Positions 7,785 to 47,735 are shown, counted from the first letter of the stretch. The stretch: DNA of 64,000 bases from an uncultured Gammaproteobacteria bacterium (GCA_964485575.1 CAZAJO010000004.1:25307-89306), one strand, 5' to 3'. Notes: a model not told the origin generated them from the sequence alone. A program made the numbers and translations.

Positions 7785-7878
7785 GCGGGTGGCTAGCGGG
7801 GGGAGACCCTCACTGAGCATCCGCAGTGAAGCAACGCGAAACGAGGATTGTCGAGTGAGGAGCGACGACAGAACCCGC
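7785..7878. ncRNA. GC-rich structured RNA-like repeat, family 1 copy A (orientation undetermined)
   Basis: About 95 nt, near-identical to 9623..9718. Closing stem GCGGGU/ACCCGC and internal stem CCUCACU/AGUGAGG. Both stems show compensatory substitutions in copy B. Confidence 0.4.
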
Positions 7879-9622: not shown

Positions 9623-9718
9623 GGGGTGGCTAGCGGGGGGAGGCCCTCATCGAGCACCCGCAGTGAAGCAACGCGAAACGAGGATTGTCGGATGAGGGAG
9701 GAGCGACGACAGGACCCC
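9623..9718. ncRNA. GC-rich structured RNA-like repeat, family 1 copy B
   Basis: Same element as 7785..7878. Closing stem UGGGGU/ACCCCA and internal stem CCCUCAUC/GAUGAGGG are the compensated versions of copy A. Ends 8 nt before the ATG at 9727. Confidence 0.4.
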
Positions 9719-18600: not shown

Positions 18601-21600
18601 GTCTTTTGGGAGGAGCTGGTACGCCAACATTTGGATCGTGTGGAACTGGGGTTAATTCCAGTCCATTCTATGAAATTGCCGCTCAGGGAATTATCGTCCA
18701 GGGAAATACCTCTGAGGACTTCCTCTTGGGAGCAACTGCAACATCTAGCGCAAAATTTGCCGTTCTTAACATCGCTGGTGGAACACCTACCGCATCGGTC
18801 TCAGCGCAAAATGCTGCCGGGCAGGCACTAGTTCTTGGATCAGATGGTTCAATCCAGTCAACAAGAAATAACAATCTTACAATTGGTGGTAATACAACAG
18901 GAAGCCTTGTACTTCCTGGAACATCCATCCAACTGACAGGAAACAATCCTGTAATTGACCTTACTACAGCCTCAACTCTTTCGCTAAATACTACAAACAA
19001 CCGTCCTATCACAACTGGTACCGGTACTTTTACTGTTGGTTCAGGAGGAACAGGAACGATTGCTATGAATGGAAGTGCTATAACAACGACCACAACATCA
19101 GTGAGTCTATTTGATGCCAATGCGACCACTATAAATTTTGGGAGAGCAGGAACAAATAATATTAACTTAGGAGGTACGTCAGGAGCACTTAATGTAGGAA
19201 ATGGTGGTAGCTATACTATTCAAACTACATCAAATGGACAACTTAATGTATCAGCTGGGTCAGGCCTTTTAACCCTAAATACTCTTTCAAACGGAGCTGT
19301 AACAACCGGAAATGGACTTACAACATTGGGTGGCAACTTGACTGTGAGTGGAACGACTATTTCTCTTGCTGGTACATCTCCTACAATTTCCACGACAGGA
19401 AGCAACAGCCTTACACTAACAGCAGCAGGAGCAGGCAGTCTAACCCTCTCCTCTGATTCAGATAGCTCAATATTTGTAGGCAACGCTACTACTCCAGCTC
19501 CTCTATCGATATCTGGAGGTATTGGCAATAATGCAGCTTTAGTTCTCAATCAACTTAATTCTACAGGTAATATCTTTTCGGCCTCGGCATCTGGAGTTAG
19601 TAAATTCGTTATCAAAAACGATGGCACAGCCTCTTCATCAGCAGGTTTTACGGTTGATGGGATCGGCAATATCCAATCTACCCTCAATCAAACACTTACG
19701 ATCGGTGGGGGCTCAACAGGAAATCTGATATTAGGTAAAGCAGCCCAGACTCTTACCCTTCCAGGGTTTACCACCAATGGTGGACTATTCTATACAAATG
19801 CGTCAGGGGTACTTGCCCAAACAGGTACTGGTGGGGCAACACAATGTCTACTTGGAGGAGCTGGTACTCCAACATTTGGTTCATGTACAGGAGGATCTAA
19901 TACAAGTCCATTCTATGAGTTCCAAGGAGCAATAGTCCCGGGCAACACCACCGAGGACTTTATCTTGGGTGGAACCGCATCAAGCAGCGCTCGATTTATC
20001 GTAAATGGCCTTGCGACCGGAATCTCCCCTACTGCTTCTATATCTGCTACAAACGGTAACGGAATATATCTTTCTGCACAAAACGGGACCATCCAGTCTC
20101 TAAGAAACAACACTCTTTCAATCGGAGGAAACACTACTGGAATAGTTGCAATAAACCCACTGGCTGCAAATTTCACAGGTATTGGGACTTCTAATCCTAT
20201 AGCTTCTCTTGATGTTAGAGGGTCACTTGGAATTATTGGTGGTGGAACTCTTGCTGTTGCTTCAATATCTGGAAGAACTTCATATGCAGCTCTTGCCGTA
20301 GACAATTTAAGTACCGTAGGAGATCTATTTACAGCTTCATCATCCTCAAATATGCAATTTGTCATCAAAAATAATGGATTTGTTGGCCTTGCAACTGCGG
20401 CTCCGACTGCCCGGCTTGATGTCAATGGTTCAGCCTCGATTTCAAGTGCATTAACATTTAGGACGGGGTCCGGAAGTATTCAAACAACTGCCTTAAATTC
20501 TCTTAATATCGGAGGGAGTACAACAGGAAATCTGATATTTAACCCTAACGGAAATAATCTCATCGGTGCTGGTACCTCAAGTCCGCGTGCCTCTTTTGAT
20601 ATCAGAAACGCTTTGGGGGTTGTTGGCGGGGGAACATTTGCTATAGCTTCAGTCTCGGGTAGAACTTCTTTTGCAGCTCTAACAGTAGACAATAGTTTAG
20701 GAGACTTATTCACAGCTTCATCATCAGGCTTAACAAGATTTGCTATTTCGCAAAATGGAAATGTAGGAATTGGAACAGGTACTCCACTTTACGCATTTGA
20801 TGTTAACAAAAAAACAGCAGCCTTCAATTCAGGCCAGGATGGCACGATTTCAAGCTGGACTAACACAACCGATACTGGATTGAGTGGGCAGCTGGAACAA
20901 TTTGGCCTCGTGTTCATAAATGGATACGTCTACCACGTAGGCGGATATGATGCACCCTCAGTACTTGATACAGTAAGATATGCAAGAGTAAAAAATGACG
21001 GAACACTAGATAATTGGGTAACAAGTCCAAATGTTCTTCCAGAGGCAAGACTTTGGCATGGAACTGTGACAGTTAATGGATATATTTACTCAATTGGTGG
21101 TCACTCAAGTGTTGCTTCACCTACAAATCCTGCTGTTTACTACACTAAAGTCAATTCAGATGGAACAATTAGCAGCTGGGGGTCAACAACTCCACTTCCA
21201 TCTCCCAGGATAAGAATTACACATTCTGTTGCAACAGCAAATGGATATATTTATGTTGTTGGAGGAGAAAATAGCTCAGCTCAAACTACTGTATGGTATA
21301 CAAAAGTAAATGCTGACGGCACGTTGGGACCTTGGCTTACAGGTTCCTCATTGCCAGTTGCTACCTCAGACAATGCAGTGGTTGTAGATAATGGATACAT
21401 ATATTCTATGGGAGGGCTAGCACCTGCAGCAACAAATGCAATCTATTATGCAAAAATTAACTATGATGGATCGATAGGACCATGGATTGGAAATCCCAAC
21501 AATCTTGCGTCAGCTGATTCGATGCATAGTGGAATTGTGGTGAATGGTTTTGTATACATTCTTGGGGGGATAAATAATTCTACAACCGTTTATTATGCAA

Positions 21601-24600
21601 AATTCAACGCTAATGGAACTATACCTGCTTTTTCGACAAATCCTGCCTCTCTTCCTGATGGTCATCAAGGAAGCGGTATAACGTATGGTAATGGCTATAT
21701 CTATATTTCCGGAGGATTTGCTACTGACAATGTAGCTTATGGATCAATTGCAAGAGTGTCTCTAGCTGCTAACTTAGACCTGTTAGGGTTGACCTCAACA
21801 AGTATAGCGAGTTCATCTGGGCTTGCTGGTGGAGGTAGTATCTTTGCAGGTAATATATTTGCCAAAAATCTTGAGGTAGGTGGAAGCGGAACCGTTTGGG
21901 GAAATCTTGCAGTATCAGATACCCTTTCGGCCAAAACTCTATCAATTTCTGGTCGGATTACTGGTAAAGCCCTCACTATTATTAACGAAACAGGTAATCA
22001 GGCTATATTTTCTGCATCTGCTTCCGGAGTTACTAAATTTACCATCGGCAATGATGGACAAGTCATGATAGGCAACATTGCTGCTGACCCTTCAACTGCC
22101 TTGGGAGCAGGATCTATATATTACAACACAGTAAGCCAGGCTCTAAAATTCTATAATGGTTCGGCATGGGCCACAATAGGTACGGGGAGCTCATCGTCAG
22201 GTCCATTTGGAGTACTTCAAGGAGCAATCGTTCCGACAAATACGACGTATGACTTTCTCCTTGGAGGAACAGCAACATCCTCTGCTAAATTCGCCGTACT
22301 CAATCTTTCAGGAACAGCAACTACTGTTGCATCGGTATCTGGCAACTTGGTTGTTATGCCTACAAATGGTACAGGAGGACTCTTGTCGATTGGTACGACA
22401 AATCCTTCTTCCAAATTACACATATTTGAATCTGTTAGCGATGTTGCAGTAACTATCGAGACGCAAGGATCAAACAAAAGTGCTAACCTAAATCTGCTTA
22501 GCACCAGTAATACTGCAGGACAAATATCCCATTTTGCTTCAGGAGTACGACAATGGATGATTGGTAACAATGGGGACATCACAGCTGGTGGAATTGGCAT
22601 ATATACTACTTCAAGTAACGCTAACCGGCTTGCCATATCTTCTACAGGCAACGTAGGGATTGGAACGGCGCTCTCTCCAACAGGAGTAAATCCTACGTCC
22701 CCCCTTCAGGTATATGGACTGAGTACTCAACCTATCGCTTCAATATCAGGTAAAACTTCGGGACCAACCCTTCTTCTAACAAATGATGGAAGCGGTGACA
22801 TACTAGCCGCTTCAGTATCCGGAGTTCAGAAGTTCAGGATCAACGCTACTGGCGATCTTATTATTGGAGACGGATCAGGGAAAATATACGGAGGAGGATT
22901 TGACCCTCTCTATACAATCGATGGCAAGAAATTTTCTACATACGCTTCAAGCATCAATGGTATGAAAGAAGAATATATCGGTACTGCAAATCTTGCCTAT
23001 GATCCTGCCGCTGGAGGATATGCTTATACCCTTGATTTCAACAATTTTGAGTATGGTACTGAGTTATGGACTTTCTCTCGGGTAATCGATCCGGATCTTA
23101 CTAAGGTCAATGTACTTCTCACACCCACTTCTCAAGCAAGGACCTGGTTCAGGCGTGACCCGGTCAACAGAAAACTCATACTCTATTCAGACAGACCTAC
23201 GTCAGTCACATACAGGTTCACTGCACCTCGTTTTGATTATGCTTTGTATCCTTCTTCGGATCATTCCCATGATATTACTGGTTTACAAGCACCAGCGGCT
23301 CCAAACACTACCGGGACAGGTGAGGCTGATCCTATGGATTCTTTCTTTGCATCTCTTTCCATACAATTTAACAATGGGATGTTCACGATACTTGATGGAT
23401 TTGGCAACTTAGTTCATAGGGTCGATGGGTTCTCAAACCTCATAGCAGCAAATCTTGAGGCTGGTTTTATCCACGCAAGGAATTTGGCTGCAGATACTTT
23501 TTCAGCAGGAAGTGCATCATTGGGTAATGCAACAGCAAATACTTTTGCAGTAGCTGCGAATACAATCACTATTGGTGGACAAGATATCAGGCAATTTATC
23601 ATAGATACTGTTACTGCAGCAGGATTTGGCCAAAATACAATCATTTCCCCTCTTGCTGAGGTAGAAACAATAAAAACAAATACTATCAGGTCTCTTACTG
23701 AAGGTGGAGATATAAATGTGAAAGGAAAACTCATCACAGAGTCAGACAGATCGGCTACTGATAGTTCAGTAGTCTCACTTGACGTGAGAGGATCAGCAAC
23801 TATTTCAGGCTCACTAGCAACAAATTCTATCCAAACTAACGATGCGACTATAGCTGGAACCCTTCGCGCAGGAAACCTTATTGCTGACAATATCCAAGGG
23901 CTTGAGGATAAGATTTCCTCAGTAGCCTCACAATTCGTCAACAATCATGCAGCAACTCTAGCAGTAGGTACTGTACGGGCTGATTTTGGCATATTTGAAC
24001 AAGGAATAACCTCAATGGGACCAGTGACTGCCAATATCCTTACTGCAACAGATCAATTGGCCGTAGGAAATAACTTTACAATCTCAAACAATGCAATAAA
24101 TACAGTAGGATCTGATCTTGCCATACAGTCTTTGAGACAAGGTGCTATAGCATTTCAGGGTGGGCTTATCCGCATGGATACAGATGGCAATATGACGGTC
24201 AACGGTAATTTCAACCTTCTCGGCGAAATTGATGCGGTATACGGAGTATTTAGTGGTACTCTCACTACCCCAGCCCTTACTACAGATCTCATTTCACCTG
24301 TAGCTGATTCGAATATCTCTCTTTCATTCAAAGATTCTAAATTTAATATTCAGAATTCCAAAACTGCTTCCGGAAGTGCTGTGCTATCCATAGACAATAA
24401 AGGGAACATACAGTCGTCAGGATCTGCAACATTTGCAAAACTCAATTTCAATCTAGTTGGAAAGGCTGAAGCAACAAGTCTTTCAGAAGCGGTAGCTACT
24501 GGAAGCGCAGGTTTTGCTTCACTCAGAGCCGGACAACCAGAACTAACCATAAAGAACAATATCATTACATCAAAATCATTGATCTATATCACACCATTTG

Positions 24601-24737
24601 GAAATACTGACAACAAAGTCCTTTATCTTCTCCGCCAAATACCCGAATCAGAAACCGAGGATGGCTCTTTCACTGTCGGAGTTTCAGGTCCGGTCCCAAC
24701 ACATGATATGCAATTCAACTGGCTGATCGTGAACTAG
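12654..24737 (+). CDS. Giant 4027-aa surface protein: two N-terminal integrase-type SAM-like domains, one TM helix (about 13767..13835), long tandem beta-strand repeat region, Kelch-type beta-propeller, C-terminal region
   Basis: Single uninterrupted ORF. N-terminal KNTIKNYVSDVRHFIAWF and ITVKNYLSDISGFARWY match the phage-integrase N-terminal SAM-like pattern. Hydrophobic helix YAFVHYVHFALLVIFAAGVGVALY. The motif ILAASASGVSKFVIKNDG recurs about a dozen times. Confidence 0.85.
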   Translation: MELLELFKRQLASKSGSSSKNTIKNYVSDVRHFIAWFEAITGSKFDPSSVTTDVILLYQNGLGGLVLNGQLQSGTQLSASSMKRHLSSIRKFFTVLEAENVVRENPFTKIITEESVEPTDYWHLKSFKDYLMLGNASKITVKNYLSDISGFARWYEEAILPTIESPLSSNQGFYLITQSVVEDYRKRLVEIQNAAPRTINRKLSALRRYLEFATRKGFITNQEISVSSVEADIADDVADLPKVALSEMSEKLSPQKRSYSNIPPVRLIQKLLINPYLLLEEGAANAITGFLIGKKVTGIANLPQKLSAQIATKNALRIQNQGISTLLGVRNIEKEFYAPDKVSLSGLPVHQKLIHHVRFTRPNWYKRYHNYAFVHYVHFALLVIFAAGVGVALYQNLVVQKQTPTFAAATAPPRILSFQGRLTDALDNPITSPQPVRFMIYNSLAATGAAELWEETRTISPDQDGIFSVLLGSDSTGANASSCGSFPPGSPYNTACLIPSTVFSDNSQIWLGVTIANSTELAPRQKIATVGYATNSEFLQGLPPTSAVSSFVNAVLALDSTGSFNLNDGIEHTFQVSNGTLTLKAQTLNLTTSLGTNGNIILNPEGLGKVDIQKPIINNSNTGNLVRGGVEINDRFGVLATESAVAAFIVNNNTTGGDIFAASSSGTTKFKIANDGSITSGFYTGQNAVLYGTQTTGLIAQATTASTGLCLQSGASTPTWGTCGSSYWNLTTDNGALTPFSSTLDLLIGGQSTASAKFAFINNASGAPTASISGNLAIAVPTGASGANLFNIFNGGSLNFQTSGGGNAGLTSRLFIANDGRIGIATTSPIAKNALDVRGISGTGSTATISARSSFAALVVNNDGLGDIFAASASGVQNFVVKNNGDIIVGPDGGGKITAAIIDPYLVQNQKTTGITSLTLQTMGGAGADIIFSNQSSDLVHILQNGNVGIGVTNPTTAKLVVGGDIGADVVGRNIGSLSIPFNNLYANNIIATGPVSGFWGQTLGSLYPANPTVDLLIGSSATSTAKFAVLNINTGTPTASVSAQNAGGQALVLASDGSIQTTRRNSLAIGGSSTGSIQFLPNNNSVNLFLTGSNAAIGNQTPQAALDVSSSSLISSVVNKIVFGSIGTAMGSLGYDGSSFNEIRIGATSNVGLELITNDTVRGYFTATGLFGLGTVSPVAQLQVNGTNGSNATVIINQGNNGDILAASASGTTKFVIKNNGIASSSAGFTIDGLGALQSTNFQTLTIGGNSTGNVVVSPNNGSGQIQFTNFTSAGGLLYTGATGILAQTNVGSGTQCLLGGTTPTFGTCGGPFRELTAFGTIVESNTTEDFLLGGVATSSAKFAVLNIAGGTPTASVSAQNAGGQALVLGGDGTIQAVRNNNLTLGGNTTGSLVLAGTSIQLSATNPIIDLTTASTLSINTTTNRPITTGTGLTTLGGNLTVNGATTSLASTAITLTGSSPIIDLTSGTTLSINTTTNRPITTGTGLTTLGGNLTVAGATTTFSNATPVLTSNTDTSLTITPNGTGNLILTSDLDTGVKIGASTNTLAPLSVSGGIGGNALSIFNQINGTDILAASASGVSKFVIKNDGTASSSAGFTVDGIGTIQSTRNQTLTVGGGSTGNLVLGKASQTLTLPGFTTNGGLLYTNASGVLAQTGTGGATQCLLGGAGTPTFGSCGTGVNSSPFYEIPAPIGVIAQANLTEDFLLGGLATSSAKFAVLNIAGGTPTASVSAQNAAGQALVLSGDGTIQSTRNNSLTLGGNTTGSLVLAGTSVQLSATNPIIDLTSSSTLFINTTTNRPITTGTGLTTHNGNLTVAGATITFSNASPIITSNTNTDLTITPNGTGNLILTSDLDTGVKIGSSTNTIAPLSVSGGIGSNALAIFNQINGTDILTASASGVSKFVIKNDGTASSSAGFTIDGIGAIQSTRNQTLTVGGGATGNLVIGRTAQTVTLPGFTTNGGLLYTNASGVLAQTGTGGATQCLLGGAGTPTFGSCGTGVNSSPFYEIAAQGIIVQGNTSEDFLLGATATSSAKFAVLNIAGGTPTASVSAQNAAGQALVLGSDGSIQSTRNNNLTIGGNTTGSLVLPGTSIQLTGNNPVIDLTTASTLSLNTTNNRPITTGTGTFTVGSGGTGTIAMNGSAITTTTTSVSLFDANATTINFGRAGTNNINLGGTSGALNVGNGGSYTIQTTSNGQLNVSAGSGLLTLNTLSNGAVTTGNGLTTLGGNLTVSGTTISLAGTSPTISTTGSNSLTLTAAGAGSLTLSSDSDSSIFVGNATTPAPLSISGGIGNNAALVLNQLNSTGNIFSASASGVSKFVIKNDGTASSSAGFTVDGIGNIQSTLNQTLTIGGGSTGNLILGKAAQTLTLPGFTTNGGLFYTNASGVLAQTGTGGATQCLLGGAGTPTFGSCTGGSNTSPFYEFQGAIVPGNTTEDFILGGTASSSARFIVNGLATGISPTASISATNGNGIYLSAQNGTIQSLRNNTLSIGGNTTGIVAINPLAANFTGIGTSNPIASLDVRGSLGIIGGGTLAVASISGRTSYAALAVDNLSTVGDLFTASSSSNMQFVIKNNGFVGLATAAPTARLDVNGSASISSALTFRTGSGSIQTTALNSLNIGGSTTGNLIFNPNGNNLIGAGTSSPRASFDIRNALGVVGGGTFAIASVSGRTSFAALTVDNSLGDLFTASSSGLTRFAISQNGNVGIGTGTPLYAFDVNKKTAAFNSGQDGTISSWTNTTDTGLSGQLEQFGLVFINGYVYHVGGYDAPSVLDTVRYARVKNDGTLDNWVTSPNVLPEARLWHGTVTVNGYIYSIGGHSSVASPTNPAVYYTKVNSDGTISSWGSTTPLPSPRIRITHSVATANGYIYVVGGENSSAQTTVWYTKVNADGTLGPWLTGSSLPVATSDNAVVVDNGYIYSMGGLAPAATNAIYYAKINYDGSIGPWIGNPNNLASADSMHSGIVVNGFVYILGGINNSTTVYYAKFNANGTIPAFSTNPASLPDGHQGSGITYGNGYIYISGGFATDNVAYGSIARVSLAANLDLLGLTSTSIASSSGLAGGGSIFAGNIFAKNLEVGGSGTVWGNLAVSDTLSAKTLSISGRITGKALTIINETGNQAIFSASASGVTKFTIGNDGQVMIGNIAADPSTALGAGSIYYNTVSQALKFYNGSAWATIGTGSSSSGPFGVLQGAIVPTNTTYDFLLGGTATSSAKFAVLNLSGTATTVASVSGNLVVMPTNGTGGLLSIGTTNPSSKLHIFESVSDVAVTIETQGSNKSANLNLLSTSNTAGQISHFASGVRQWMIGNNGDITAGGIGIYTTSSNANRLAISSTGNVGIGTALSPTGVNPTSPLQVYGLSTQPIASISGKTSGPTLLLTNDGSGDILAASVSGVQKFRINATGDLIIGDGSGKIYGGGFDPLYTIDGKKFSTYASSINGMKEEYIGTANLAYDPAAGGYAYTLDFNNFEYGTELWTFSRVIDPDLTKVNVLLTPTSQARTWFRRDPVNRKLILYSDRPTSVTYRFTAPRFDYALYPSSDHSHDITGLQAPAAPNTTGTGEADPMDSFFASLSIQFNNGMFTILDGFGNLVHRVDGFSNLIAANLEAGFIHARNLAADTFSAGSASLGNATANTFAVAANTITIGGQDIRQFIIDTVTAAGFGQNTIISPLAEVETIKTNTIRSLTEGGDINVKGKLITESDRSATDSSVVSLDVRGSATISGSLATNSIQTNDATIAGTLRAGNLIADNIQGLEDKISSVASQFVNNHAATLAVGTVRADFGIFEQGITSMGPVTANILTATDQLAVGNNFTISNNAINTVGSDLAIQSLRQGAIAFQGGLIRMDTDGNMTVNGNFNLLGEIDAVYGVFSGTLTTPALTTDLISPVADSNISLSFKDSKFNIQNSKTASGSAVLSIDNKGNIQSSGSATFAKLNFNLVGKAEATSLSEAVATGSAGFASLRAGQPELTIKNNIITSKSLIYITPFGNTDNKVLYLLRQIPESETEDGSFTVGVSGPVPTHDMQFNWLIVN
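16600..19950 (+). repeat. Tandem near-identical coding repeats (about 0.96 kb unit, 3-4 copies) inside the giant gene
   Basis: Stretches of over 300 nt recur almost verbatim, e.g. around 17400..17720, 18360..18680 and 19600..19920. The antisense ORFs in the track (16856..17350, 17867..18280, 18683..19129) are their mirror artefacts. Confidence 0.65.
20900..21750 (+). other. Six-bladed Kelch-type beta-propeller domain within the giant protein
   Basis: NGYVYHVGG, NGYIYSIGG, NGYIYVVGG, NGYIYSMGG, NGFVYILGG and NGYIYISGG spaced about 52 aa apart. Confidence 0.6.
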
Positions 24738-24766: not shown

Positions 24767-25132
24767 ATGGGAAAAATAAGTACATTTACTGATCTTGAAA
24801 CCTGGAAAGAAGGTCATAAGCTAGTAATCGCTGTTTATAAAATTCTTCCAACCATTCCTCGCTCTTCATATTCGCTTATAGATCAATTATCTAGATGTGT
24901 AGTGTCTATTACTTCAAATATTGCTGAAGGCTTCTCGAGGCAAAGCAAAAAAGAAAAGATTCAGTTTTATCACATAGCAAAAGGCTCCCTTACTGAGCTT
25001 CAAAATCAATTGTTAATATGTCGAGATGTCCGATTTATAACACAAAAAGAATTCCTTCCGTTAGCTGAACAGACTATAGTTGTGGGAAAATTACTTACAG
25101 GACTTATTCGATCAGCGCAATCATATCAATGA
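24767..25132 (+). CDS. Four-helix-bundle protein (23S rRNA intervening-sequence protein family; DGR Avd-like fold)
   Basis: AEGFSRQSKKEKIQFYHIAKGSLTELQNQL matches the TIGR02436-type four-helix-bundle family pattern. Confidence 0.7.
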   Translation: MGKISTFTDLETWKEGHKLVIAVYKILPTIPRSSYSLIDQLSRCVVSITSNIAEGFSRQSKKEKIQFYHIAKGSLTELQNQLLICRDVRFITQKEFLPLAEQTIVVGKLLTGLIRSAQSYQ

Positions 25133-33395: not shown

Positions 33396-35564
33396 ATGAG
33401 TAAATCGGTTTTATCATTTTTATCATCAGTTGCCACCATTATCACGGCAACTCTCTTTCTTTTGTTTCCGCTATTCTTCTTGACGATAACTACAGATTTC
33501 TTCACATTTCCAAAACAAATATTGATCGTTATTGGATCGTTACTTCTGTTAGTTCTTTGGGGTATAAAAGTTGTAGTTGAAAAAAGAATCACCTTTCTTC
33601 TCAATCCTCTCAATTTACCTATCCTTCTTTTTGGGCTCGTTCTTATTCTTTCAACCTTCTTCTCCTTGTCGTCTCAGGACGCTGTACTCCAATCTGTACC
33701 GGTCATTCTCCTTTGCGTACTTTTTGTAACAACCGTCAATTTCATCACTGAGAAGTCATCATTTACGATAGTAGTAACCTCCCTTATTATTGGAAGTGCT
33801 CTTTCTACTCTTTTAAGTATCTTTTCCTACTTCAATATATATCTACTTCCTTTTGAGGCTATAAAAAATCCAGGGTTTAACACTCACGGCTCTCCAGTCC
33901 AATACGCTGCTTTTTTGATCCCATTACTAATCCTTTGCGTTGCCTCACTCCTTGATATTGTCAAGAAAGGTAAGTTGAAGTCAATTACCAAAGATTACTC
34001 ATATATTCTTCAGCTTGTATCGGCTGTAATTTTTGCAGTCGGCCTTGGAATAGTTATCTTCCAGATCGTATCTGCACCTCAAAAACCGATTCTTCTACCT
34101 TTCAATCACGGTTTTCAGGTAGCATTTGCGACAATTAGTCAGGATGTTCCTCAAAGACTTGCCCAATCATTACTTCTGGGGAGTGGATATGGGACGTTCT
34201 CGACTGATTTTACACGATATGTATCTCCAGCTTTTAACACACTTTCCTTTTGGAATCTAACATTTGCTTTCTCATCCTCTTATGTTTTGGAGATATTGGC
34301 AACTACTGGTATATTGGGGCTTTTTACTTTTGCCTTCATTTTCCTGAATTTCTTGAGAAGCAAAGCCGCACCATCAAATCCGCTGTTCCTTTCGACACTT
34401 GCCGTCTTTATCATGACTCTTCTTATTCCATTCTCTTATTCTTTGGTTTTTCTTCTATTCGCACTATTGAGTCTATTTGTGTGCTACAGAGCGATAGCCA
34501 GGGCTAAAGGATTTGATAGTATCGCACTCAATCTAGTGGCATTGCGTCAAGGCCTTATCTCAGTTACTGAGGAGGGAGCAAAGAAAAATAAAGAGAACTT
34601 AGTACTACCAGCAATCGTTTTGGCAGTAACCGTCTTGATTGCTGCATTTGTGCTTTTCTACCTGACTGGGACGGGTGCAACACCAAGAAAAGGCTATTTA
34701 TCCCTTATCAGCTCTGATATCAAATTTGCAAAGTCCTTCTCCCAAGAAGCATTAAGATCCGGAACTCAAACATATAACCTGGAGACGCAAGCAATTTCTG
34801 AATATCCATACAGAAGCGACTATTACAGACTGTTCTCTCAAATCAATCTTGCACTTGCCGCAAACATAGTAACAGCACAACAAGGCAGAAAGCCATCAGA
34901 AGACGTGCAAAATAATATCATTGCCCTTCTTCAACAAAGCATTAACAGTGCAAGACAAGCAGTAACCTTGTCTCCTCTTTCATCAGTCAATTGGCAAAAT
35001 CTAGGCCAAATCTATAGAAATCTCATCGGAGTTGGCCAGAATGCTGAACAATTCGCGGTCGCCTCGTACAATCAGGCATCAACGCTCAATCCCTCAAATC
35101 CAAGCCTTAGAATAGAGCTTGGTGGAATATATTACCAACTAAAACAATGGGATCTAGCACAAAATCAATTCAATATCGCTCAACAACTAAAAGCAGATTA
35201 TCCAAATGCATACTACAACCTTGGTCATGTTTATGAGGAAAAAGGAGACCTTCAGAATGCTTTGATCCAATATAGAACGGTTGCTCAGCTCGTAGCCAAT
35301 GACAAGCCAAATCTTGACAAAATCAATGGTGAGATCAAAGCGTTAGAGGATAAAATCGGCCAAGCAGAGGCTCAAAACGCAGAAACAAAGCAACCCGCAA
35401 CAGATACTACACCACTTGGAGTAGATAAGCCTCAAACTGAATTCCCACCAAAAAATCCTAAGGAAACCATTCCAGCTCCTCCAAAAGGTGTTGTGACTCC
35501 AAAACCAACAGCTACTGTTACACCAGCTCCTACAGTTGAGGTTTCTCCAACACCAGTTAACTAA
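33396..35564 (+). CDS. O-antigen-ligase-like polytopic membrane protein with C-terminal TPR repeats and Pro/Thr-rich tail
   Basis: At least 10 TM helices in the N-terminal half. C-terminal TPR-like repeats (ADYPNAYYNLGHVYEEKGDLQNALIQY). Confidence 0.65.
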   Translation: MSKSVLSFLSSVATIITATLFLLFPLFFLTITTDFFTFPKQILIVIGSLLLLVLWGIKVVVEKRITFLLNPLNLPILLFGLVLILSTFFSLSSQDAVLQSVPVILLCVLFVTTVNFITEKSSFTIVVTSLIIGSALSTLLSIFSYFNIYLLPFEAIKNPGFNTHGSPVQYAAFLIPLLILCVASLLDIVKKGKLKSITKDYSYILQLVSAVIFAVGLGIVIFQIVSAPQKPILLPFNHGFQVAFATISQDVPQRLAQSLLLGSGYGTFSTDFTRYVSPAFNTLSFWNLTFAFSSSYVLEILATTGILGLFTFAFIFLNFLRSKAAPSNPLFLSTLAVFIMTLLIPFSYSLVFLLFALLSLFVCYRAIARAKGFDSIALNLVALRQGLISVTEEGAKKNKENLVLPAIVLAVTVLIAAFVLFYLTGTGATPRKGYLSLISSDIKFAKSFSQEALRSGTQTYNLETQAISEYPYRSDYYRLFSQINLALAANIVTAQQGRKPSEDVQNNIIALLQQSINSARQAVTLSPLSSVNWQNLGQIYRNLIGVGQNAEQFAVASYNQASTLNPSNPSLRIELGGIYYQLKQWDLAQNQFNIAQQLKADYPNAYYNLGHVYEEKGDLQNALIQYRTVAQLVANDKPNLDKINGEIKALEDKIGQAEAQNAETKQPATDTTPLGVDKPQTEFPPKNPKETIPAPPKGVVTPKPTATVTPAPTVEVSPTPVN

Positions 35565-35585
35565 AGTTAATAGTAAAAATTCCTT

Positions 35586-35760
35586 GATCGTCGATTGCAG
35601 TTCTGAACTTGAGATTTAGATTGAGCGAACGTCTCGACAGCCGAAAAGGCGGAGTGTATTCACGAAGTCCGGGCTGTAGTGAAAGAATGAGAAATCGAAC
35701 GTTCTAGACTGCTCCTCGACGAGAGCTTTTTGTTCTTTTCTCGGAAGAAAAGAACAAAAG
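35586..35760. repeat. Structured non-coding repeat, family 2 copy 1 (about 175 nt), ending in a perfect palindromic hairpin
   Basis: About 85% identical to 47555..47735. Hairpin gttcttttc-tcggaa-gaaaagaac at 35732..35755. Compensatory GUG-UAUU-CAC versus GCG-UACC-CGC between copies. Lies between convergent genes, so it is non-coding. Confidence 0.5.
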
Positions 35761-35807
35761 ATAGAATTAATGTAGGAAGCTCAGCGGGTCGTTTCGCAAC
35801 CCATTGT

Positions 35808-36983
35808 CTAATGTAAAAATGACAAAGGGTTGTAGAAAGTACCGCCACTTCTGACTTCGAAATGAAGATGGGCACCTGTTGTTCTACCTGTCAAACCCAC
35901 CCAACCTACCACGGTCTGCCCTGCAACCACGCTTTGTCCAGAACTTACATTTAATCCACTCATGTGTGCATAGAGTGTCTGATACCCATTGCTTCCACTT
36001 ACAATAACATGCGTTCCATATCCATAATTCCATCCTCCAGCGACTGCATAACTGACTGTTCCGCTTGAAGCTGCGACAACTGGGGTTCCAACAGGTGCTC
36101 CAATATCAATTCCTTGGTGGTACCAACTATAGTATTGGTTCATGGTTCCCTGTACTGGCCACGCAAACCCGGATCCTGAGACAGAAACTGATCCTGAAGG
36201 TATAAATGTGCGCCGCGCTATGTAAGTTGGAGCCGACCTCGGCGGAACTCCTTCAGGCACAATAAGGGTTTGACCTATGACAAGTGAAAAGGTCTGTGGA
36301 TCTGCAAAATCATTGAATGGAAAATCAACTATTCCCTGTGCATTCGTGCTGTATTTCTTAGCAATTGTGTAAATTGTATCTCCTGAAGTCACTTTATGAG
36401 CTACTCCGCTTACTGGAAGTATCTGCAAAGTGTCTCCTACTGTTATATCATCGTCAGTCAAATCATTCTGCCAACGTACAGTATCTTCAGATACTGCAAA
36501 TTTCTTGGCAATTCCAGACAATGTGTCTCCCTTCTGGACAGTATAGGTAATGATCTCTGATCTAGGTTTGTCTGAAAGCTGGGTATGAAATACGTCTTGA
36601 GGTGCAAGACTTTGCTTTTGCTCTGAGATATCTTGGGCAAAAGAAAGAAGGTTTTTATCTTTTGAAAAAGGGTTTTGGTCTGTGATGAACGGGGAAATAA
36701 GCACACCAAAAGAAAGAACAGCCATGGCTGCAACATGAAGGAAAAACCGATTGCGCTTGCCGCGCTTTATCAAAATAGATTTAACGACGGTATTTTTGTT
36801 CTTCTCAAAGATGTTGGAGAAGAACATTACCTTGTCTTTTGTGTATGTCGAAAGGAACAAAAGAAAGCTCCCAAACTCACTTTTGAGGTAAGAAAGCGAT
36901 TTTAAAGCATTTTTGAAAAACGAGGGTTTTTTTGCTCCTGTATGAACTTTGCCCAATGAGGGGGCCATCTTGTGACGATTCAT
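35808..36983 (-). CDS. LysM-domain M23 family peptidase
   Basis: Two LysM motifs (YTVQKGDTLSGIAKKF, HKVTSGDTIYTIAKKY). C-terminal M23 signature GLTGRTTGAHLHFEV. Confidence 0.85.
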   Translation of the reverse strand: MNRHKMAPSLGKVHTGAKKPSFFKNALKSLSYLKSEFGSFLLFLSTYTKDKVMFFSNIFEKNKNTVVKSILIKRGKRNRFFLHVAAMAVLSFGVLISPFITDQNPFSKDKNLLSFAQDISEQKQSLAPQDVFHTQLSDKPRSEIITYTVQKGDTLSGIAKKFAVSEDTVRWQNDLTDDDITVGDTLQILPVSGVAHKVTSGDTIYTIAKKYSTNAQGIVDFPFNDFADPQTFSLVIGQTLIVPEGVPPRSAPTYIARRTFIPSGSVSVSGSGFAWPVQGTMNQYYSWYHQGIDIGAPVGTPVVAASSGTVSYAVAGGWNYGYGTHVIVSGSNGYQTLYAHMSGLNVSSGQSVVAGQTVVGWVGLTGRTTGAHLHFEVRSGGTFYNPLSFLH

Positions 36984-37030: not shown

Positions 37031-38569
37031 TCACTCTAGGTACGTTTCAAGTTGTTTGAATGCTTTGTTAGCACTCAATTTGCGAAGTGCCCTTGCTTCT
37101 ATTTGCCGGATCCTTTCACGGCTTACACCAAATTTCTTTCCTATTTCTTCTAAAGTGTGTTCATGACCATCTATAAATCCGAATCGTAGATCTAATATAA
37201 CTCGTTCTCTCTTACTGCACACTCTTACAGCAATCTCAGACATCTTTTCTCTTAGTTCTTTTCTTTGAGCTTCATTTATAAACGAATTTGACTGAGGATC
37301 TGCAACAAAATCACCAAGCGTACCCTCTGAATCGGAAAACAATCTTCTATCTAGAGAGCCTATACCTAACGCTGCGAATCCACTTTTGACTGTTTCACTA
37401 GCTTCCTCTAATTTGCCGTCTTTTAATGCTTTCATCATAGCTTCATAAGTTTGGGAAGGAATACGTATGTCGCGTGATTTATCTGTCAATGCTCTTATCA
37501 TTGATTGTCGGATCCACGCTGTTGCATATGTAGAGAACCTAAATCCCTTTCTATAATCAAAATAGGCAGCCGCAACACTAAGACCAATCATTCCTTCCGA
37601 AGTTAAATCCTCAACACCAAAACTAGTTCTCCTATATCTGGTTGCATTAGATAGAACCAAACGGTAATTTCTCATAACTAATTCATCAAATGCTATTTCC
37701 CCCTCAGAGAGATCATTTTTGTATTGTTCAAATAGTTTTTGAAGCTCCTGTTCCCTATCTTCTTTGATCTCTATATCAAGTATTTCTTGAATTTTCTTAT
37801 TGATCTGATCAGTTAAGGCTAAACCTACTTCAGGTAAAGGAGTGTGTTCATCTCTTTCTTCTCCTTCATCCTTCTGATTTCCTGATTTCTCTCTAGCGGA
37901 AAAATGACTTAATAAAAATTTTGCCCTATTACTTCCTAACGCTTTTTCTATGATATCAAGACTTTCTTCGTTCAATCCCTGTCTATCAATTCTTTTGAAA
38001 GCAAATAATATTAACTTAGACCACTGTATTTTTGAACCCAAGATCATCTGCTCTTGCAGCTCTGGAAATTCAACTTGACCAAAAAATGATGCGAGTTTTG
38101 TTATCTCACTATCAGACTCAAACATAGCCAAATCAAGCGATTCCTCTCGAGTTAAAACAACAGATTTTTCAATTATAGGAACCTCACCTGTAGGTCTTTT
38201 AACTTTTGGGCGATAAGGTGCATTCCTTGGACTTGAATTAACTCTTCTTGAAGGTACCTCGTTCTGAGACCTAATAAATTGCTTCACTTCATCTAATACT
38301 GAGGGTTGGTAAATTTCATCTCCAAAAAATTCTGTGGAGCTTTGTTTTCTAAATCGTCTTAGTGCATCACTCAACTGACTTAAATCAGCAATGCCCAAGT
38401 AATCCATAGCCTGTTGCTTCACTTCAGATAATGGCACTTTACCACCTGTAGTATATGGCAATACTTGCTCAGAAGGATTCAAACCTAAATTAATTTCAGG
38501 AACTTGATTTGCTTGGTTTTCAGGAATTTTGTCTGGCGGAATATCTTGGATGGCTTGTTCTGGATTCAT
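37031..38569 (-). CDS. rpoD: RNA polymerase sigma-70 family primary-like sigma factor with long N-terminal extension
   Basis: Region 2 (YRLVLSNATRYRR...EGMIGLSVAAAYFDYRKGFRFSTYATAWIRQ) and region 4 (TLEEIGKKFGVSRERIRQIEARALRKL). Confidence 0.85.
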   Translation of the reverse strand: MNPEQAIQDIPPDKIPENQANQVPEINLGLNPSEQVLPYTTGGKVPLSEVKQQAMDYLGIADLSQLSDALRRFRKQSSTEFFGDEIYQPSVLDEVKQFIRSQNEVPSRRVNSSPRNAPYRPKVKRPTGEVPIIEKSVVLTREESLDLAMFESDSEITKLASFFGQVEFPELQEQMILGSKIQWSKLILFAFKRIDRQGLNEESLDIIEKALGSNRAKFLLSHFSAREKSGNQKDEGEERDEHTPLPEVGLALTDQINKKIQEILDIEIKEDREQELQKLFEQYKNDLSEGEIAFDELVMRNYRLVLSNATRYRRTSFGVEDLTSEGMIGLSVAAAYFDYRKGFRFSTYATAWIRQSMIRALTDKSRDIRIPSQTYEAMMKALKDGKLEEASETVKSGFAALGIGSLDRRLFSDSEGTLGDFVADPQSNSFINEAQRKELREKMSEIAVRVCSKRERVILDLRFGFIDGHEHTLEEIGKKFGVSRERIRQIEARALRKLSANKAFKQLETYLE

Positions 38570-40088: not shown

Positions 40089-40787
40089 ATGAATTTTAAA
40101 AGATTTGTCGCAACATTTTTTGCTACAGCAGCTTTTCTTGCAACCGCAGGAAGCGCTATAGCTTCTGGTACCGGATATGGTACAAGTAACTGCCAAGTAA
40201 TCTACGGCGGAGGACAAGTTTGTCCAACAACCCTACAATTCTCTATAGATAAGAAAGTTCTTGCACCTACTAAAGGTGGGTCATTTGTTGATAATCTTGG
40301 ATTTAATGATGCAAAATTCCAACCAGGAGATCAGGTTTCATTTAAAATAACTCTAAAAAATACCGGAGACAAGACAATTGACCAAATAACTGTTGTTGAT
40401 ACTCTTCCAGCTTATCTTACATTTACATCTGGACCTGGAACTTATGATGCAACTTCAAGAACCGTTACCTATATCATAAAGAATATTGCTGCTAACCAAT
40501 CAAATGATCAGACAATAGTTGCTACTATCGCAAATGTTGATGCACTTCCAAAAGATCAAGGAGTTATGTGTCTTACAAACAATGTAAAAGGTAATGACAA
40601 TCAAAGTGACGTAGCAAACGATAGCTCTTCTTTTTGTATCCAAAAAGAAGCTATGACTCCAAAAGTATTCACAACAGTTCCACCTAAATCTATCCCAAAT
40701 ACCGGACCTGAAATGCTTCCTTTGCTTGGGCTTATCCCAGCTGGAATCGCAGGATTTACACTTCGAAGAAAATCAAAACTCGGATAA
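40089..40787 (+). CDS. Secreted surface protein with C-terminal sortase-type sorting signal (IPNTG + hydrophobic segment + basic tail)
   Basis: Signal peptide. C-terminus IPNTGPEMLPLLGLIPAGIAGFTLRRKSKLG. Confidence 0.6.
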   Translation: MNFKRFVATFFATAAFLATAGSAIASGTGYGTSNCQVIYGGGQVCPTTLQFSIDKKVLAPTKGGSFVDNLGFNDAKFQPGDQVSFKITLKNTGDKTIDQITVVDTLPAYLTFTSGPGTYDATSRTVTYIIKNIAANQSNDQTIVATIANVDALPKDQGVMCLTNNVKGNDNQSDVANDSSSFCIQKEAMTPKVFTTVPPKSIPNTGPEMLPLLGLIPAGIAGFTLRRKSKLG

Positions 40788-46898: not shown

Positions 46899-47554
46899 AT
46901 TCTCCCCAAGTTATCCACATTTAATTTGTGTGTCAAAATATATTGATTTGATAGGCTAAAATGAATACATACTAACTCTAGGTCTACATCATAATATATC
47001 ACTTTTGTTATAGGTTGAAGAGGTTGACAAGATGTGTTATACTTTTGACAATTATGAAACTTTTTTCATTCACCACCAAAAAACGTTCCAAGAACAATAG
47101 AAGTAAAAGGATATTTGCGGACTATCAACAGGAGTCTGTAAATAACTACGGAAAACAACAATTAAAATCACTCATCAGTCGGGGCATTAGTGTCCAATGG
47201 TAGAGAACTGGTGAGGCAGGATCTTTTAAAATAACGGGTTTTAGTTAACAGTTAACTTTCTTTCTTTGACGAGGAGAAAGAAAAAGAGCATCGCTTTCGC
47301 TACTCATAAATAAATTCAAGTACGAAAAGCAATGCTCTTTTAACTGTTAGCTATTAGTCTTTAGGCAGGGTAAGACTATGCTAAGAATCAAATTAGCAAA
47401 TTCTACTCTTCCTTGTCAAGAAAACATGATGAAGCGGATTGTGATCATTTAGATTGTTAAATGAACACTTTTCACGAAGGGTATTTGGTCGGGAGTGAGT
47501 GAGTTGGGCAGGCTTTCTCACTTCCGATTAAGTACCCTTTTTTAGTACCCAAAA

Positions 47555-47735
47555 ATCATCGATTGCAGTTCTGAACTTGAGATTTAGATTGAACGAACGT
47601 CTCGACAGCCGAAAAGGCGGAGCGTACCCGCGAAGTCCGGGCTGTAGTGAGTGAATGAAAAATCGAGCGTTCAAGGCTGCATCTCGATGAGAGCTTTTGG
47701 TTCTTTTCTCGGAAGAAAAGAACAGAGTTATTTTG
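47555..47735. repeat. Structured non-coding repeat, family 2 copy 2, abutting the pyk stop codon
   Basis: Hairpin gttcttttc-tcggaa-gaaaagaac at 47700..47723, 4 nt from the pyk stop (47728..47730). The rest is collinear with copy 1. Confidence 0.5.

What the first reader, a model, noticed from the sequence alone, without database searches (positions are those of the whole stretch)
35586..35760. About 175-nt structured non-coding repeat (family 2) placed downstream of two minus-strand genes
35586..35760 (after the LysM/M23 gene) and 47555..47735 (4 nt after the pyk stop) are about 85% identical and collinear. Both end in the same perfect hairpin (gttcttttc-tcggaa-gaaaagaac), which extends to cuuuuguucuuuuc/gaaaagaacaaaag. 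Between copies a small hairpin changes from GUG-UAUU-CAC to GCG-UACC-CGC, a compensatory U-A to C-G change that suggests selection on RNA structure. The hairpin has a U tract 5' and an A tract 3' on both strands, so it is not a canonical intrinsic terminator in either direction. The element could be a conserved 3'UTR element, an sRNA, or a small MITE-like repeat.
Basis: seen in the sequence. Interest (0 to 1): 0.6.

Follow-up and report, generated by a model that had tools for sequence, protein, structure and literature searches.

The report
Structured dispersed intergenic repeat of Levybacteria

Summary
The repeat is real. Window 35587-35756 and 47555-47724 are 91% identical over 170 nt (E 1e-64), and there are only two copies in the window. 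I found five more relatives, all in Candidatus Levybacteria contigs: L012, L065, L010, L037, and a weak one in L047.

All share one architecture. A closing rod of about 140 nt (helices P1-P4, an invariant 4x4 internal loop, a central junction, a GC-rich arm P5-P6) is followed by GAGC-UUUU and an AU-rich hairpin of 10-14 bp.

On six copies, 95% of cells pair and 23 of 49 pairs show changes on both sides; slid controls give 38-49% paired. G-U outnumbers A-C 12 to 1, so the fold belongs to the window + strand. That strand is antisense to the M23 and pyk genes and co-directional with the upstream gene at all five independent sites.

The element comes and goes. Strains with identical 2.5-kb pyk flanks either carry it or do not, and relatives hold other inserts at both sites.

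It has no Rfam match, no conserved ORF, no inverted repeats at its own ends, no visible target duplication and no terminator U-tract.

Best reading: a new family of structured interspersed repeats in the ERIC/BOX/Correia class, co-transcribed as a 3' tail. The RNA-level function is inferred.

The parts
35587..35762 (+). Copy A, whole element (rod + linker + hairpin + short A-rich tail)
   Evidence: 91% repeat. CM R1 hit at 35586-35766, 210 bits. An identical copy sits in an independent Logan contig, L064.
47555..47727 (+). Copy B, whole element. Its right edge abuts the pyk stop codon (47728-47730, minus strand).
   Evidence: CM R1 hit at 47554-47734, 208 bits. Logan contigs L001, L006 and L007 break exactly at the pyk stop, and L005 carries a different allele from that base on.
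35588..35594 (+). P1 5' strand UCGUCGA. It pairs with 35716-35722 (UCGACGA). In copy B: 47556-47562 with 47684-47690 (UCAUCGA/UCGAUGA).
   Evidence: 6 of 7 P1 pairs change on both sides across copies, with 100% of cells paired.
35597..35608 (+). P2 GCAG and P3 UCU-GAAC, 5' strands. Partners are 35701-35712 (GUUC-u-AGA-CUGC).
   Evidence: Folds. GCAG/CUGC becomes GUUG/CAAC in L012. UCU/AGA becomes UCU/AGG (a U-G pair) in copy B, L012 and L065.
35609..35612 (+). Invariant 4x4 internal loop, UUGA opposite GAAC (35697-35700). It could hold tandem G-A pairs.
   Evidence: Invariant in the five close copies. The tandem G-A reading is inference.
35613..35617 (+). P4 5' strand GAUUU. It pairs with 35692-35696 (AAAUC).
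   Evidence: Three versions are seen: GAUUU/AAAUC, GAAUU/AAUUC and GAAAU/AUUUC. All cells pair.
35618..35691 (+). Central domain. It contains a small hairpin P4a (35623-35635), P5 ACAGCC/GGCUGU (35637-35642 with 35672-35677), P5b CGGA/UCCG (35650-35653 with 35668-35671), P6 GUG-UAUU-CAC (35654-35663), and the 3' junction strand AGUGAAAGAAUGAG.
   Evidence: The core GACAGCCGAAAAGGCGGAG ... AGUCCGGGCUGU is invariant in the five close copies. P6 covaries (UA, CG, UG) and is nearly deleted in L010. In L037 the whole domain is replaced by an AU-rich stem.
35723..35727 (+). Linker GAGC-U between P1 and the hairpin. It forms the motif (GA)GAGCUUUU conserved across the family.
   Evidence: Conserved in the window copies, L012, L065, L010 (GAGCUUCU) and L037. 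L047 has GAGGCUUU.
35728..35759 (+). 3' hairpin of copy A: 14 bp, loop CGGA, U-rich 5' arm and A-rich 3' arm. In copy B: 47700-47723, 10 perfect bp.
   Evidence: It is one of only four perfect hairpins of 9 bp or more in 64 kb. Its stem covaries across copies: 4 pairs change on both sides. No U-tract follows it on either strand.
47478..47543 (+). Context, not part of the element: a canonical intrinsic terminator (long hairpin plus T6) that ends the conserved non-coding transcript just upstream of copy B.
   Evidence: Sequence. The hairpin covaries between loci, and the left edge of copy B lies 12 nt after the T-run.

Best explanation
The element is one member of a small, so far Levybacteria-restricted family of dispersed, non-autonomous intergenic repeats of about 180 nt.

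Shown:
- It is non-coding.
- It folds on the window + strand into an irregular rod of about 140 nt (P1-P4, a conserved internal loop, a central junction with a GC-rich arm), followed by GAGC-UUUU and an AU-rich hairpin.
- The pairing is maintained by compensatory substitutions, while parts of the unpaired core stay invariant.
- It sits in the terminator position just after a co-directional gene.
- It is present or absent, or replaced by other small cassettes, between close strains and relatives.

Inferred:
- It is transcribed by read-through as the 3' tail of the upstream transcript. In two sites this puts it between two co-directional genes.
- Its fold acts at the RNA level as a 3'-end module. 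It could be a double-stranded rod that blocks 3' exonucleases, or that is cut by RNase III, and it could insulate convergent genes. This is the way ERIC, BOX, RUP and Correia elements behave.
- Selection on that fold, in one orientation only, is what keeps the copies intact.

How it moves is unknown. Recombination between flanks, or an unidentified trans-acting enzyme, are both possible.
For: - The repeat is real and has two copies in the window.
- Relatives occur only in Levybacteria DNA. L010 is labelled Levyibacteriota. L012's RmuC is closest to Levybacteria proteins. L037, L047 and L065 were reached through Levybacteria pyk, M23 and RmuC orthologues.
- Structure: 95.1% of cells pair. 23 of 49 pairs change on both sides. 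No shuffle out of 500 reaches the observed values. Slid controls give 38-49% paired and 1-5 covarying pairs.
- Strand: 12 G-U against 1 A-C.
- Between the two window copies no pair is broken by the 18 differences (P about 0.0005).
- Orientation: the element is co-directional with the upstream gene at five independent sites. These are TPR, the terminated ncRNA, SpoU (in two genomes), APH, and a 98-aa ORF in L037. The gap from the upstream stop codon is 14-37 nt at three of them.
- Turnover at the pyk site: L002 carries the element and L005 does not, yet both show the same 14 mismatches to the window over the 2473-nt flank. Three contigs break exactly at the junction. L037, L038 and L042 lack it there.
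- Turnover at the TPR/M23 site: other genomes hold a weak family member (L047, 28 bits), GIY-YIG cassettes, 23S_rRNA_IVP cassettes, or unrelated DNA.
- Persistence: the SpoU/RmuC site holds a copy in both L012 and L065, 77% identical against 82% for the flanking gene.
- Published small interspersed repeats behave this way when co-transcribed (PMC3049150, PMC2649163, PMC3184786).
Against: - There is no expression data, so transcription, read-through and any RNA-level effect are inferred.
- Copy B lies 12 nt after a canonical terminator, which argues against efficient read-through there.
- Copy number is low: 2 in 64 kb, and none to one in each 20-kb stretch of relatives. About 340 kb of Levybacteria loci were searched with the second model.
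- A 19-mer from the core is invariant in copies whose stems have diverged. That looks more like a functional RNA gene than a selfish repeat.
- No empty site clean enough to show an insertion junction was found. At the pyk site the element replaces 57 nt instead of simply adding to the sequence.
- The sample is only six or seven copies, and the counting alignment was fitted to the model.
Confidence: 0.5

Rival explanations
1. It is an independent, trans-acting structured ncRNA gene family, for example a protein-binding or scaffold RNA. The rod and conserved core would be the functional RNA and the 3' hairpin its terminator or stability hairpin. Copies would arise by duplication and be lost or replaced over time.
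For: - The invariant core (GACAGCCGAAAAGGCGGAG ... AGUCCGGGCUGU, the 4x4 loop UUGA/GAAC) sits beside fast-covarying stems, which is typical of functional RNAs.
- Both window copies are kept intact.
- A copy is retained at the SpoU/RmuC site in two lineages.
- Copy B lies behind a terminator, so it may need its own transcription.
- L010 has a near-consensus promoter about 90 nt upstream of its copy.
Against: - There is no conserved promoter in or upstream of the element; the flanks are unrelated right up to P1.
- No U-tract terminator is present.
- In L037 the 'core' domain is swapped for an unrelated AU-rich stem, and L047 is only weakly related.
- Presence and absence differ between strains with identical flanks.
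- No Rfam family matches.
Confidence: 0.2
2. It is a DNA-level mobile element whose fold matters in single-stranded DNA. It would be a substrate of a strand-specific HUH or tyrosine-recombinase machinery (like IS200/IS605-derived PATEs, REP/RAYT or integron attC sites), and the covariation would reflect structure-based recognition during transposition.
For: - Pairing is strand-specific, with G-T tolerated.
- Stems covary without sequence conservation, as in attC sites.
- Gain and loss occur at the strain level, and different small cassettes (GIY-YIG, IVP) occupy the same intergenic hotspot.
Against: - No transposase, RAYT or integrase was found among the 28 window ORFs scanned with Pfam out of 39 listed.
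- There is only one small terminal hairpin, not one at each end.
- No shared target motif or cleavage tetranucleotide appears at the flanks.
- The attC R' box (GTTRRRY) is absent; both strands read GTTC (read).
- There is no cassette array.
- The orientation bias relative to transcription is better explained at the RNA level.
Confidence: 0.15
3. One reading: it is a 3'UTR element or terminator of the minus-strand genes (M23, pyk), transcribed from the minus strand.
For: - The hairpin lies 4 nt after the pyk stop and 48 nt after the M23 stop.
- The minus-strand folds are also stable (z -3.0 and -3.5).
Against: - On the minus strand the 12 G-U pairs become A-C mismatches.
- In L010, L012 and L065 the gene on the hairpin side runs the same way as the element, so it faces the element with its 5' end.
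- No U-tract follows the hairpin on the minus strand.
- Relatives and co-occurring strains lack the element downstream of the same genes.
Confidence: 0.04
4. It is a neutral segmental duplicate with no selected structure.
For: The window holds only two copies.
Against: - Relatives exist in other genomes at unrelated loci, with compensated stems.
- No difference between the two window copies breaks a pair.
Confidence: 0.01

Closest known systems
ERIC (enterobacterial repetitive intergenic consensus) and similar long imperfect-palindrome repeats
   Same: Both are non-coding, 100-200 nt, intergenic and co-transcribed with neighbours. Both fold into a long irregular hairpin, have orientation-dependent effects on transcripts, are conserved across related genomes, and differ in presence between them (PMC3049150 background; PMC3184786).
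   Different: This is a different phylum and there is no sequence relation. Here a separate 3' hairpin module lies outside the rod, copy number is low, and the central arm is GC-rich and invariant in the main subfamily.
Pneumococcal BOX / RUP / SPRITE and Neisseria Correia (CREE) elements (MITE-like small interspersed repeats)
   Same: These are small structured repeats at gene ends that are co-transcribed. SPRITE is enriched at the 3' ends of convergent genes. CREE RNA is an RNase III substrate. Insertions differ between strains (PMC3049150, PMC2649163, PMC10969869).
   Different: BOX, RUP and CREE have terminal inverted repeats and target duplications, and some have a candidate parent IS. 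None of these is seen here. SPRITE looks like a Rho-independent terminator, whereas this hairpin has no U-tract.
Hairpin-flanked GIY-YIG and 23S_rRNA_IVP (four-helix-bundle) mini-cassettes of the same genomes
   Same: They occupy the very same TPR/M23 gap in relatives (L052, L055, L060, L061) and are bracketed by long inverted repeats. The L060/L061 cassettes end in a hairpin with nearly the same arms (TTTCTTTTCTCC/GGAGAAAAGAAA). The flank of the L052 cassette shares CGTAGTGAAGAAT with the element's GUAGUGAAAGAAU.
   Different: Those cassettes carry an ORF and this element does not. Kinship rests on short matches only and was not tested.
6S RNA
   Same: It has a similar size (about 180 nt) and a rod shape with a large central loop.
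   Different: 6S RNA is a housekeeping RNA conserved by synteny. This element is absent from close relatives at both sites, differs between strains, and gives no Rfam 6S hit even at E up to 10.

Membership tests
Classical MITE | Terminal inverted repeats at both ends of the element, conserved in sequence (transposase binding) | tested here: not met
   The 5' end is the P1 5' strand, but its partner lies about 38 nt inside the 3' end, and the 3' hairpin module lies outside the rod. The arm sequences are not conserved: P1 is UCGUCGA, UCACCGA, UCGUCAU, UGGCAU and CUGACAC in different copies, each compensated.
Classical MITE | Target-site duplication flanking the insertion | tested here: inconclusive
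   No direct repeat is seen at the flanks of copies A, B, L010, L012 or L065. No clean empty site was available; at the pyk site the element replaces 57 nt.
Classical MITE | Parent IS with matching ends in the same genome | not testable with these tools
   Only 64 kb of the genome is held. No transposase was found among the 28 window ORFs scanned out of 39 listed.
Small interspersed structured repeats (ERIC/BOX/CREE class, broad sense) | Several dispersed, non-coding intergenic copies under 200 bp with a strongly base-paired fold, differing in presence between strains | tested here: met
   Two copies in the window and five more at unrelated loci. No conserved ORF. 95% of cells pair. Strain polymorphism at the pyk site. 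Caveat: copy number is low.
Intrinsic (Rho-independent) terminator | GC-rich stem immediately followed by a U-tract | tested here: not met
   The stem has 3 G-C pairs out of 10-14. U precedes it and A follows it on both strands. Only copy B is flagged, weakly, by the scan. A true terminator with T6 lies just upstream, at 47478-47543.
Any Rfam 15 family (including 6S, RNase P, ribozymes, HEARO, OLE) | Covariance-model score at or near the gathering threshold | tested here: not met
   No hit at gathering in the whole window. At E up to 10 there is only noise (17.8 bits or less against thresholds of 65-90).
6S RNA | Conserved housekeeping gene retained in related genomes | tested here: not met
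   It is absent at both orthologous sites in L037, L038, L042, L052, L055, L057, L060 and L061; L047 lacks it at the pyk site and holds only a weak relative (28 bits) at the TPR/M23 site. It also differs between strains.
DGR template/variable repeat pair | Mismatches confined to adenines of one copy; the variable repeat inside a target gene; a reverse transcriptase nearby | tested here: not met
   The 18 differences are of mixed types (G>A, U>C, A>G, A>U, C>U, U>G). Both copies are intergenic. No reverse transcriptase appears among the scanned ORFs.
Integron attC site | R''/R' boxes (RYYYAAC ... GTTRRRY), placement at the end of cassettes in an array | tested here: not met
   The only GTT-containing arms read GTTCTAG and GTTCAAG, or GTTCAGA on the other strand, with C at the fourth position. 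There is no array and no integrase among the scanned ORFs.
IS200/IS605-derived PATE or omega-RNA-bearing end | Sub-terminal hairpins at both ends, a conserved target or cleavage motif at the left flank, TnpA/TnpB in the genome | tested here: inconclusive
   There is one terminal hairpin only, and the left flanks share no motif. The rest of the genome could not be searched.

The most novel reading that the evidence does not exclude
The rod with its invariant core (the UUGA/GAAC loop, ACAGCC-GAAAAGG-CGGAG ... AGUCCGGGCUGU) is a previously undescribed functional RNA class of CPR bacteria. It could be a small ribozyme, or the RNA partner of an unidentified protein. On this reading it propagates between intergenic sites as a unit with its 3' hairpin, possibly through an RNA intermediate given the strand-specific fold and A-rich tail, and is not merely a passive structured repeat.
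Probability: 0.12. Interest if true: 0.75.

Novelty: new member of a known kind. Interest (0 to 1): 0.45.

Why it matters
I found no description of small structured interspersed repeats in candidate-phyla-radiation bacteria. These genomes are tiny and are usually thought poor in repeats.

A family with strong covariation, a strand-specific fold, strain-level gain and loss, and shared hotspots with GIY-YIG and IVP mini-cassettes shows that the ends of convergent genes in Levybacteria are dynamic landing sites.

It also gives a concrete RNA motif to test in metatranscriptomes, and it explains why short-read assemblies of these organisms break at such loci.

If the conserved core turns out to be a functional RNA, it would add a new CPR-specific RNA class.

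Tried and rejected
- Rfam at gathering and at E up to 10: nothing.
- Metagenome scans with a gapped core pattern and with the 19-mer: 0 hits, then 19 chance hits.
- Viral contig scans: none, or chance hits only.
- Plasmid and phage BLAST in distant mode: no match.
- Coding potential: a TTG-started 25-32 aa ORF in the + frame is truncated in copy B and lost in L012. Rejected.
- DGR TR/VR pair: rejected because the mismatches are not adenine-specific.
- attC: rejected because the R boxes are missing.
- 6S-like RNA: rejected on presence/absence.
- Terminator on either strand: rejected because there is no U-tract.
- A promoter inside or upstream of the element: nothing conserved; only L010 has a good upstream site.
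- A motif-plus-hairpin scan (GCTT[TC][TG] followed by a stem of 8 bp or more, plus a long-range P1) over all loci found no extra members. The second model R2, run over about 340 kb, also found none beyond L047.
- The RNase P-like 11-mer AAGUCCGGGCU in the core is treated as coincidence. It is recalled from memory, its pairing partners differ, and no covariance-model hit supports it.

Full report
**Observation**

The two stretches are a genuine repeat. Window 35587-35756 and 47555-47724 align without gaps at 90.6-91% identity over 170 nt (blastn E 1.3e-64), and no third copy exists in the 64-kb window. Both end in the hairpin gttcttttct-cgga-agaaaagaac. These are two of only four perfect hairpins of 9 bp or more in the window. 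The 14-bp extension is perfect only in copy A.

Copy A lies between the stop of a plus-strand TPR gene (35564) and the stop of the minus-strand LysM/M23 gene (35808). Copy B lies between a canonical plus-strand terminator (hairpin 47478-47537 plus T6) and the stop codon of minus-strand pyk (47728-47730), 4 nt from the hairpin. The small-hairpin change GUG/CAC to GCG/CGC is present.

**Organism and relatives**

The best pyk and M23 homologues are from Candidatus Levybacteria of the candidate phyla radiation. One scan of 185,579 species genomes with the core 19-mer GACAGCCGAAAAGGCGGAG gave nine loci. Two of them carry the whole element at 76-78% identity:
- L010, a Levyibacteriota MAG.
- L012, labelled Gammaproteobacteria, but its RmuC is 84% identical to proteins named Levybacteria.

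JGI metagenome, viral, plasmid and phage collections gave nothing real.

I then walked orthologous loci of relatives through pyk, M23 and RmuC homologues and searched them with covariance models. That added three copies:
- L065:9736-9918, 177 bits, at the same SpoU-to-RmuC gap as L012.
- L037:9249-9439, 58 bits with R1 and 108 bits with R2.
- L047:11229-11406, a weak member at 20 then 28 bits (E 1.7e-4), at the same TPR/M23 gap as copy A.

About 340 kb of Levybacteria loci searched with the second model held no others.

**Anatomy (window + strand, copy A coordinates)**

- P1: UCGUCGA (35588-94) with UCGACGA (35716-22).
- P2: GCAG with CUGC.
- P3: UCU-GAAC with GUUC-u-AGA.
- An invariant 4x4 internal loop, UUGA opposite GAAC.
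- P4: GAUUU with AAAUC.
- A central junction with a small hairpin P4a.
- A GC-rich arm: P5 ACAGCC/GGCUGU, P5b CGGA/UCCG and the variable tip P6.
- After P1 closes: GAGC-UUUU and the AU-rich hairpin (35728-35759), followed by an A-rich tail.

Single-sequence folds recover this shape. In L037 the GC-rich arm is replaced by an AU-rich stem, which gives an unbranched rod (z -4.9). The constant features of the family are therefore the rod, the loop motifs, the linker and the hairpin.

**Is the fold selected, and on which strand?**

On six copies aligned to the model, 95.1% of cells form standard pairs and 23 of 49 pairs change on both sides. No shuffle out of 500 reaches these values. Sliding the partners by 1-3 columns drops pairing to 38-49% and covarying pairs to 1-5 (similar with L047 included).

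P1 covaries at 6 of 7 pairs, P4 at 3 of 5, and the 3' hairpin at 4 of 14. The alignment was fitted to the model, which inflates pairing somewhat, but the slid controls share that bias.

Between the two window copies, 7 of 18 differences fall in paired columns and none breaks a pair (simulation P about 0.0005).

G-U pairs outnumber A-C 12 to 1, spread over eight different pairs. The fold therefore belongs to the window + strand, whether as RNA or as that strand of DNA.

**Context**

At five independent sites the element follows a co-directional gene or transcript:
- TPR (copy A and L047).
- The terminated non-coding transcript (copy B).
- SpoU (L012 and L065).
- APH (L010).
- A 98-aa membrane-like ORF (L037; the called plus-strand ORF there looks spurious).

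The gap from the upstream stop is 14-37 nt at three sites, which is the usual terminator position. The gene on the hairpin side is convergent at three sites and co-directional at two. No gene family recurs next to the element, so a cis-regulatory link to a particular gene is unlikely.

**Turnover**

Contigs from other samples whose 2473-nt pyk flank shows the same 14 mismatches to the window either carry copy B (L002, L003, L004, L008) or carry an unrelated sequence of about 57 nt from the first base after the pyk stop (L005). Three more contigs break exactly at that base, as expected if both alleles co-occur.

L037, L038 and L042 also lack the element there.

The TPR/M23 gap is a hotspot. It holds copy A in the window and in L064, the weak relative in L047-L051, a GIY-YIG cassette in L052 and L055, a 23S_rRNA_IVP cassette in either orientation in L060 and L061, and 307 nt of other DNA in L057.

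Copy A and the L047 element share no BLAST similarity although their flanking genes are 81-84% identical in DNA. By contrast, the L012 and L065 copies are 77% identical beside an RmuC gene that is 82% identical. One site therefore shows replacement and another shows vertical persistence.

**What it is not**

- No Rfam family matches.
- No conserved ORF.
- Not a DGR repeat pair, because the mismatches are not adenine-specific.
- Not an attC site, because the R boxes are missing.
- Not 6S RNA, because it is not conserved by synteny.
- Not an intrinsic terminator on either strand.
- Not a classical MITE. The ends of the unit are not inverted repeats of each other, the paired arms are not conserved in sequence, and no target duplication is visible.
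- No transposase, integrase or reverse transcriptase was found among the 28 window ORFs scanned out of 39 listed.

**Most likely mechanism**

Shown: the element is a dispersed, non-coding, strand-specific structured element under selection for its fold. It sits in the post-gene position and is gained, lost or replaced between strains.

Inferred: it is transcribed as the tail of the upstream transcript and acts as an RNA 3'-end module. The long rod would be an obstacle to 3' exonucleases, or a substrate for RNase III, and a buffer between convergent genes. Published small interspersed repeats (ERIC, BOX, RUP, SPRITE, Correia) do this (PMC3049150, PMC2649163, PMC3184786, PMC10969869). Orientation-specific selection would explain both the orientation bias and the G-U pattern.

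Weak points: there is no expression data, a real terminator lies just upstream of copy B, copy number is low, and the invariant core would fit a free-standing functional RNA at least as well. I put 0.5 on this model, 0.2 on an independent ncRNA gene family, 0.15 on a DNA-level (ssDNA-folding) mobile substrate, and under 0.05 on the minus-strand 3'UTR reading.

**Novelty and score**

The kind of element, a small structured interspersed repeat, is known. This family is new, and I found no literature on such repeats in CPR bacteria. It departs from the MITE template by having no terminal repeats or duplications, by its modular 3' hairpin, and by its invariant unpaired core.

I file it as a new member of a known kind, with interest 0.45. 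The boldest reading still open is a new functional RNA class that spreads as a unit (probability about 0.12).

**Dead ends and limits**

The sample is six or seven copies.

Noticed in passing
window 47015-47543 (+): This is a strongly conserved non-coding stretch of about 500 nt between the 1142-aa gene and copy B. It has a conserved promoter-like site (TTGAAG-17-TATACT with an upstream TG, 47015-47043), an invariant block of about 130 nt that forms long hairpins, and a canonical terminator (47478-47543) whose stem covaries between loci. It is conserved in L037, L038, L042, L047 and L052. It has no convincing ORF, no Rfam hit at E up to 1, and no tRNA or tmRNA. It is probably an undescribed Levybacteria ncRNA.
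   Followed up: partly
window 7787-7860 and 9624-9697: A second repeat family: 74 nt, 92% identical, G+C-rich, with an internal stem CCTCACT.../...GAGTGAGG. The copies flank genes downstream of leuS.
   Followed up: no
window 35564-35808; L047:11177-11442; L052:11177-11623; L055; L060:11147-11767; L061:11174-11755: The gap between the convergent TPR and M23 genes is an insertion hotspot in Levybacteria. Different genomes hold this element, a distant relative, a GIY-YIG mini-gene, or a 23S_rRNA_IVP/bAvd-like mini-gene in either orientation. The ORF cassettes are bracketed by long inverted repeats. The L060/L061 cassettes end in a hairpin whose arms nearly match the element's 3' hairpin.
   Followed up: partly
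window 37031-38569 (-): A 512-aa protein with sigma-70 regions 2 and 4 sits between rho and M23 in the window. It is absent from the relatives examined. In L047, L057 and L061 rho is followed directly by M23, and L052 and L055 have a 23S_rRNA_IVP gene there instead.
   Followed up: no
window 24767-25132 (+): A stand-alone 23S_rRNA_IVP / bAvd-like gene of 121 aa lies directly after the 4027-aa repeat protein.
   Followed up: no
window 12654-24737 (+): A single 4027-aa ORF built of diverged internal repeats with a period of about 1 kb (repeat families D1-D5, D7).
   Followed up: no
window 35665-35675 and 47633-47643: The invariant core contains AAGUCCGGGCU. From memory, this matches the bacterial RNase P RNA CR-I/P4 segment. 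No RNase P covariance-model hit supports a relation, and the pairing partners differ.
   Followed up: partly
L010:2451-2479 (-): A near-consensus promoter (TTGACA-17-TATATT) lies about 90 nt upstream of the L010 copy. That copy sits in front of a LexA-like/S24 gene and a Y-family polymerase gene.
   Followed up: no
L037:9152-10000: Compared with the window, L037 carries about 850 extra nt between the TRAM-domain gene and pyk. The insert holds a 98-aa membrane-like ORF followed by its diverged copy of the element, so it may be a joint cassette.
   Followed up: partly
window 40627-40650 (+): A perfect 10-bp hairpin of the same style (agct-CTTCTTTTTG-tatc-CAAAAAGAAG) lies inside the 3' part of the DUF11/CLIPPER gene.
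   Followed up: no
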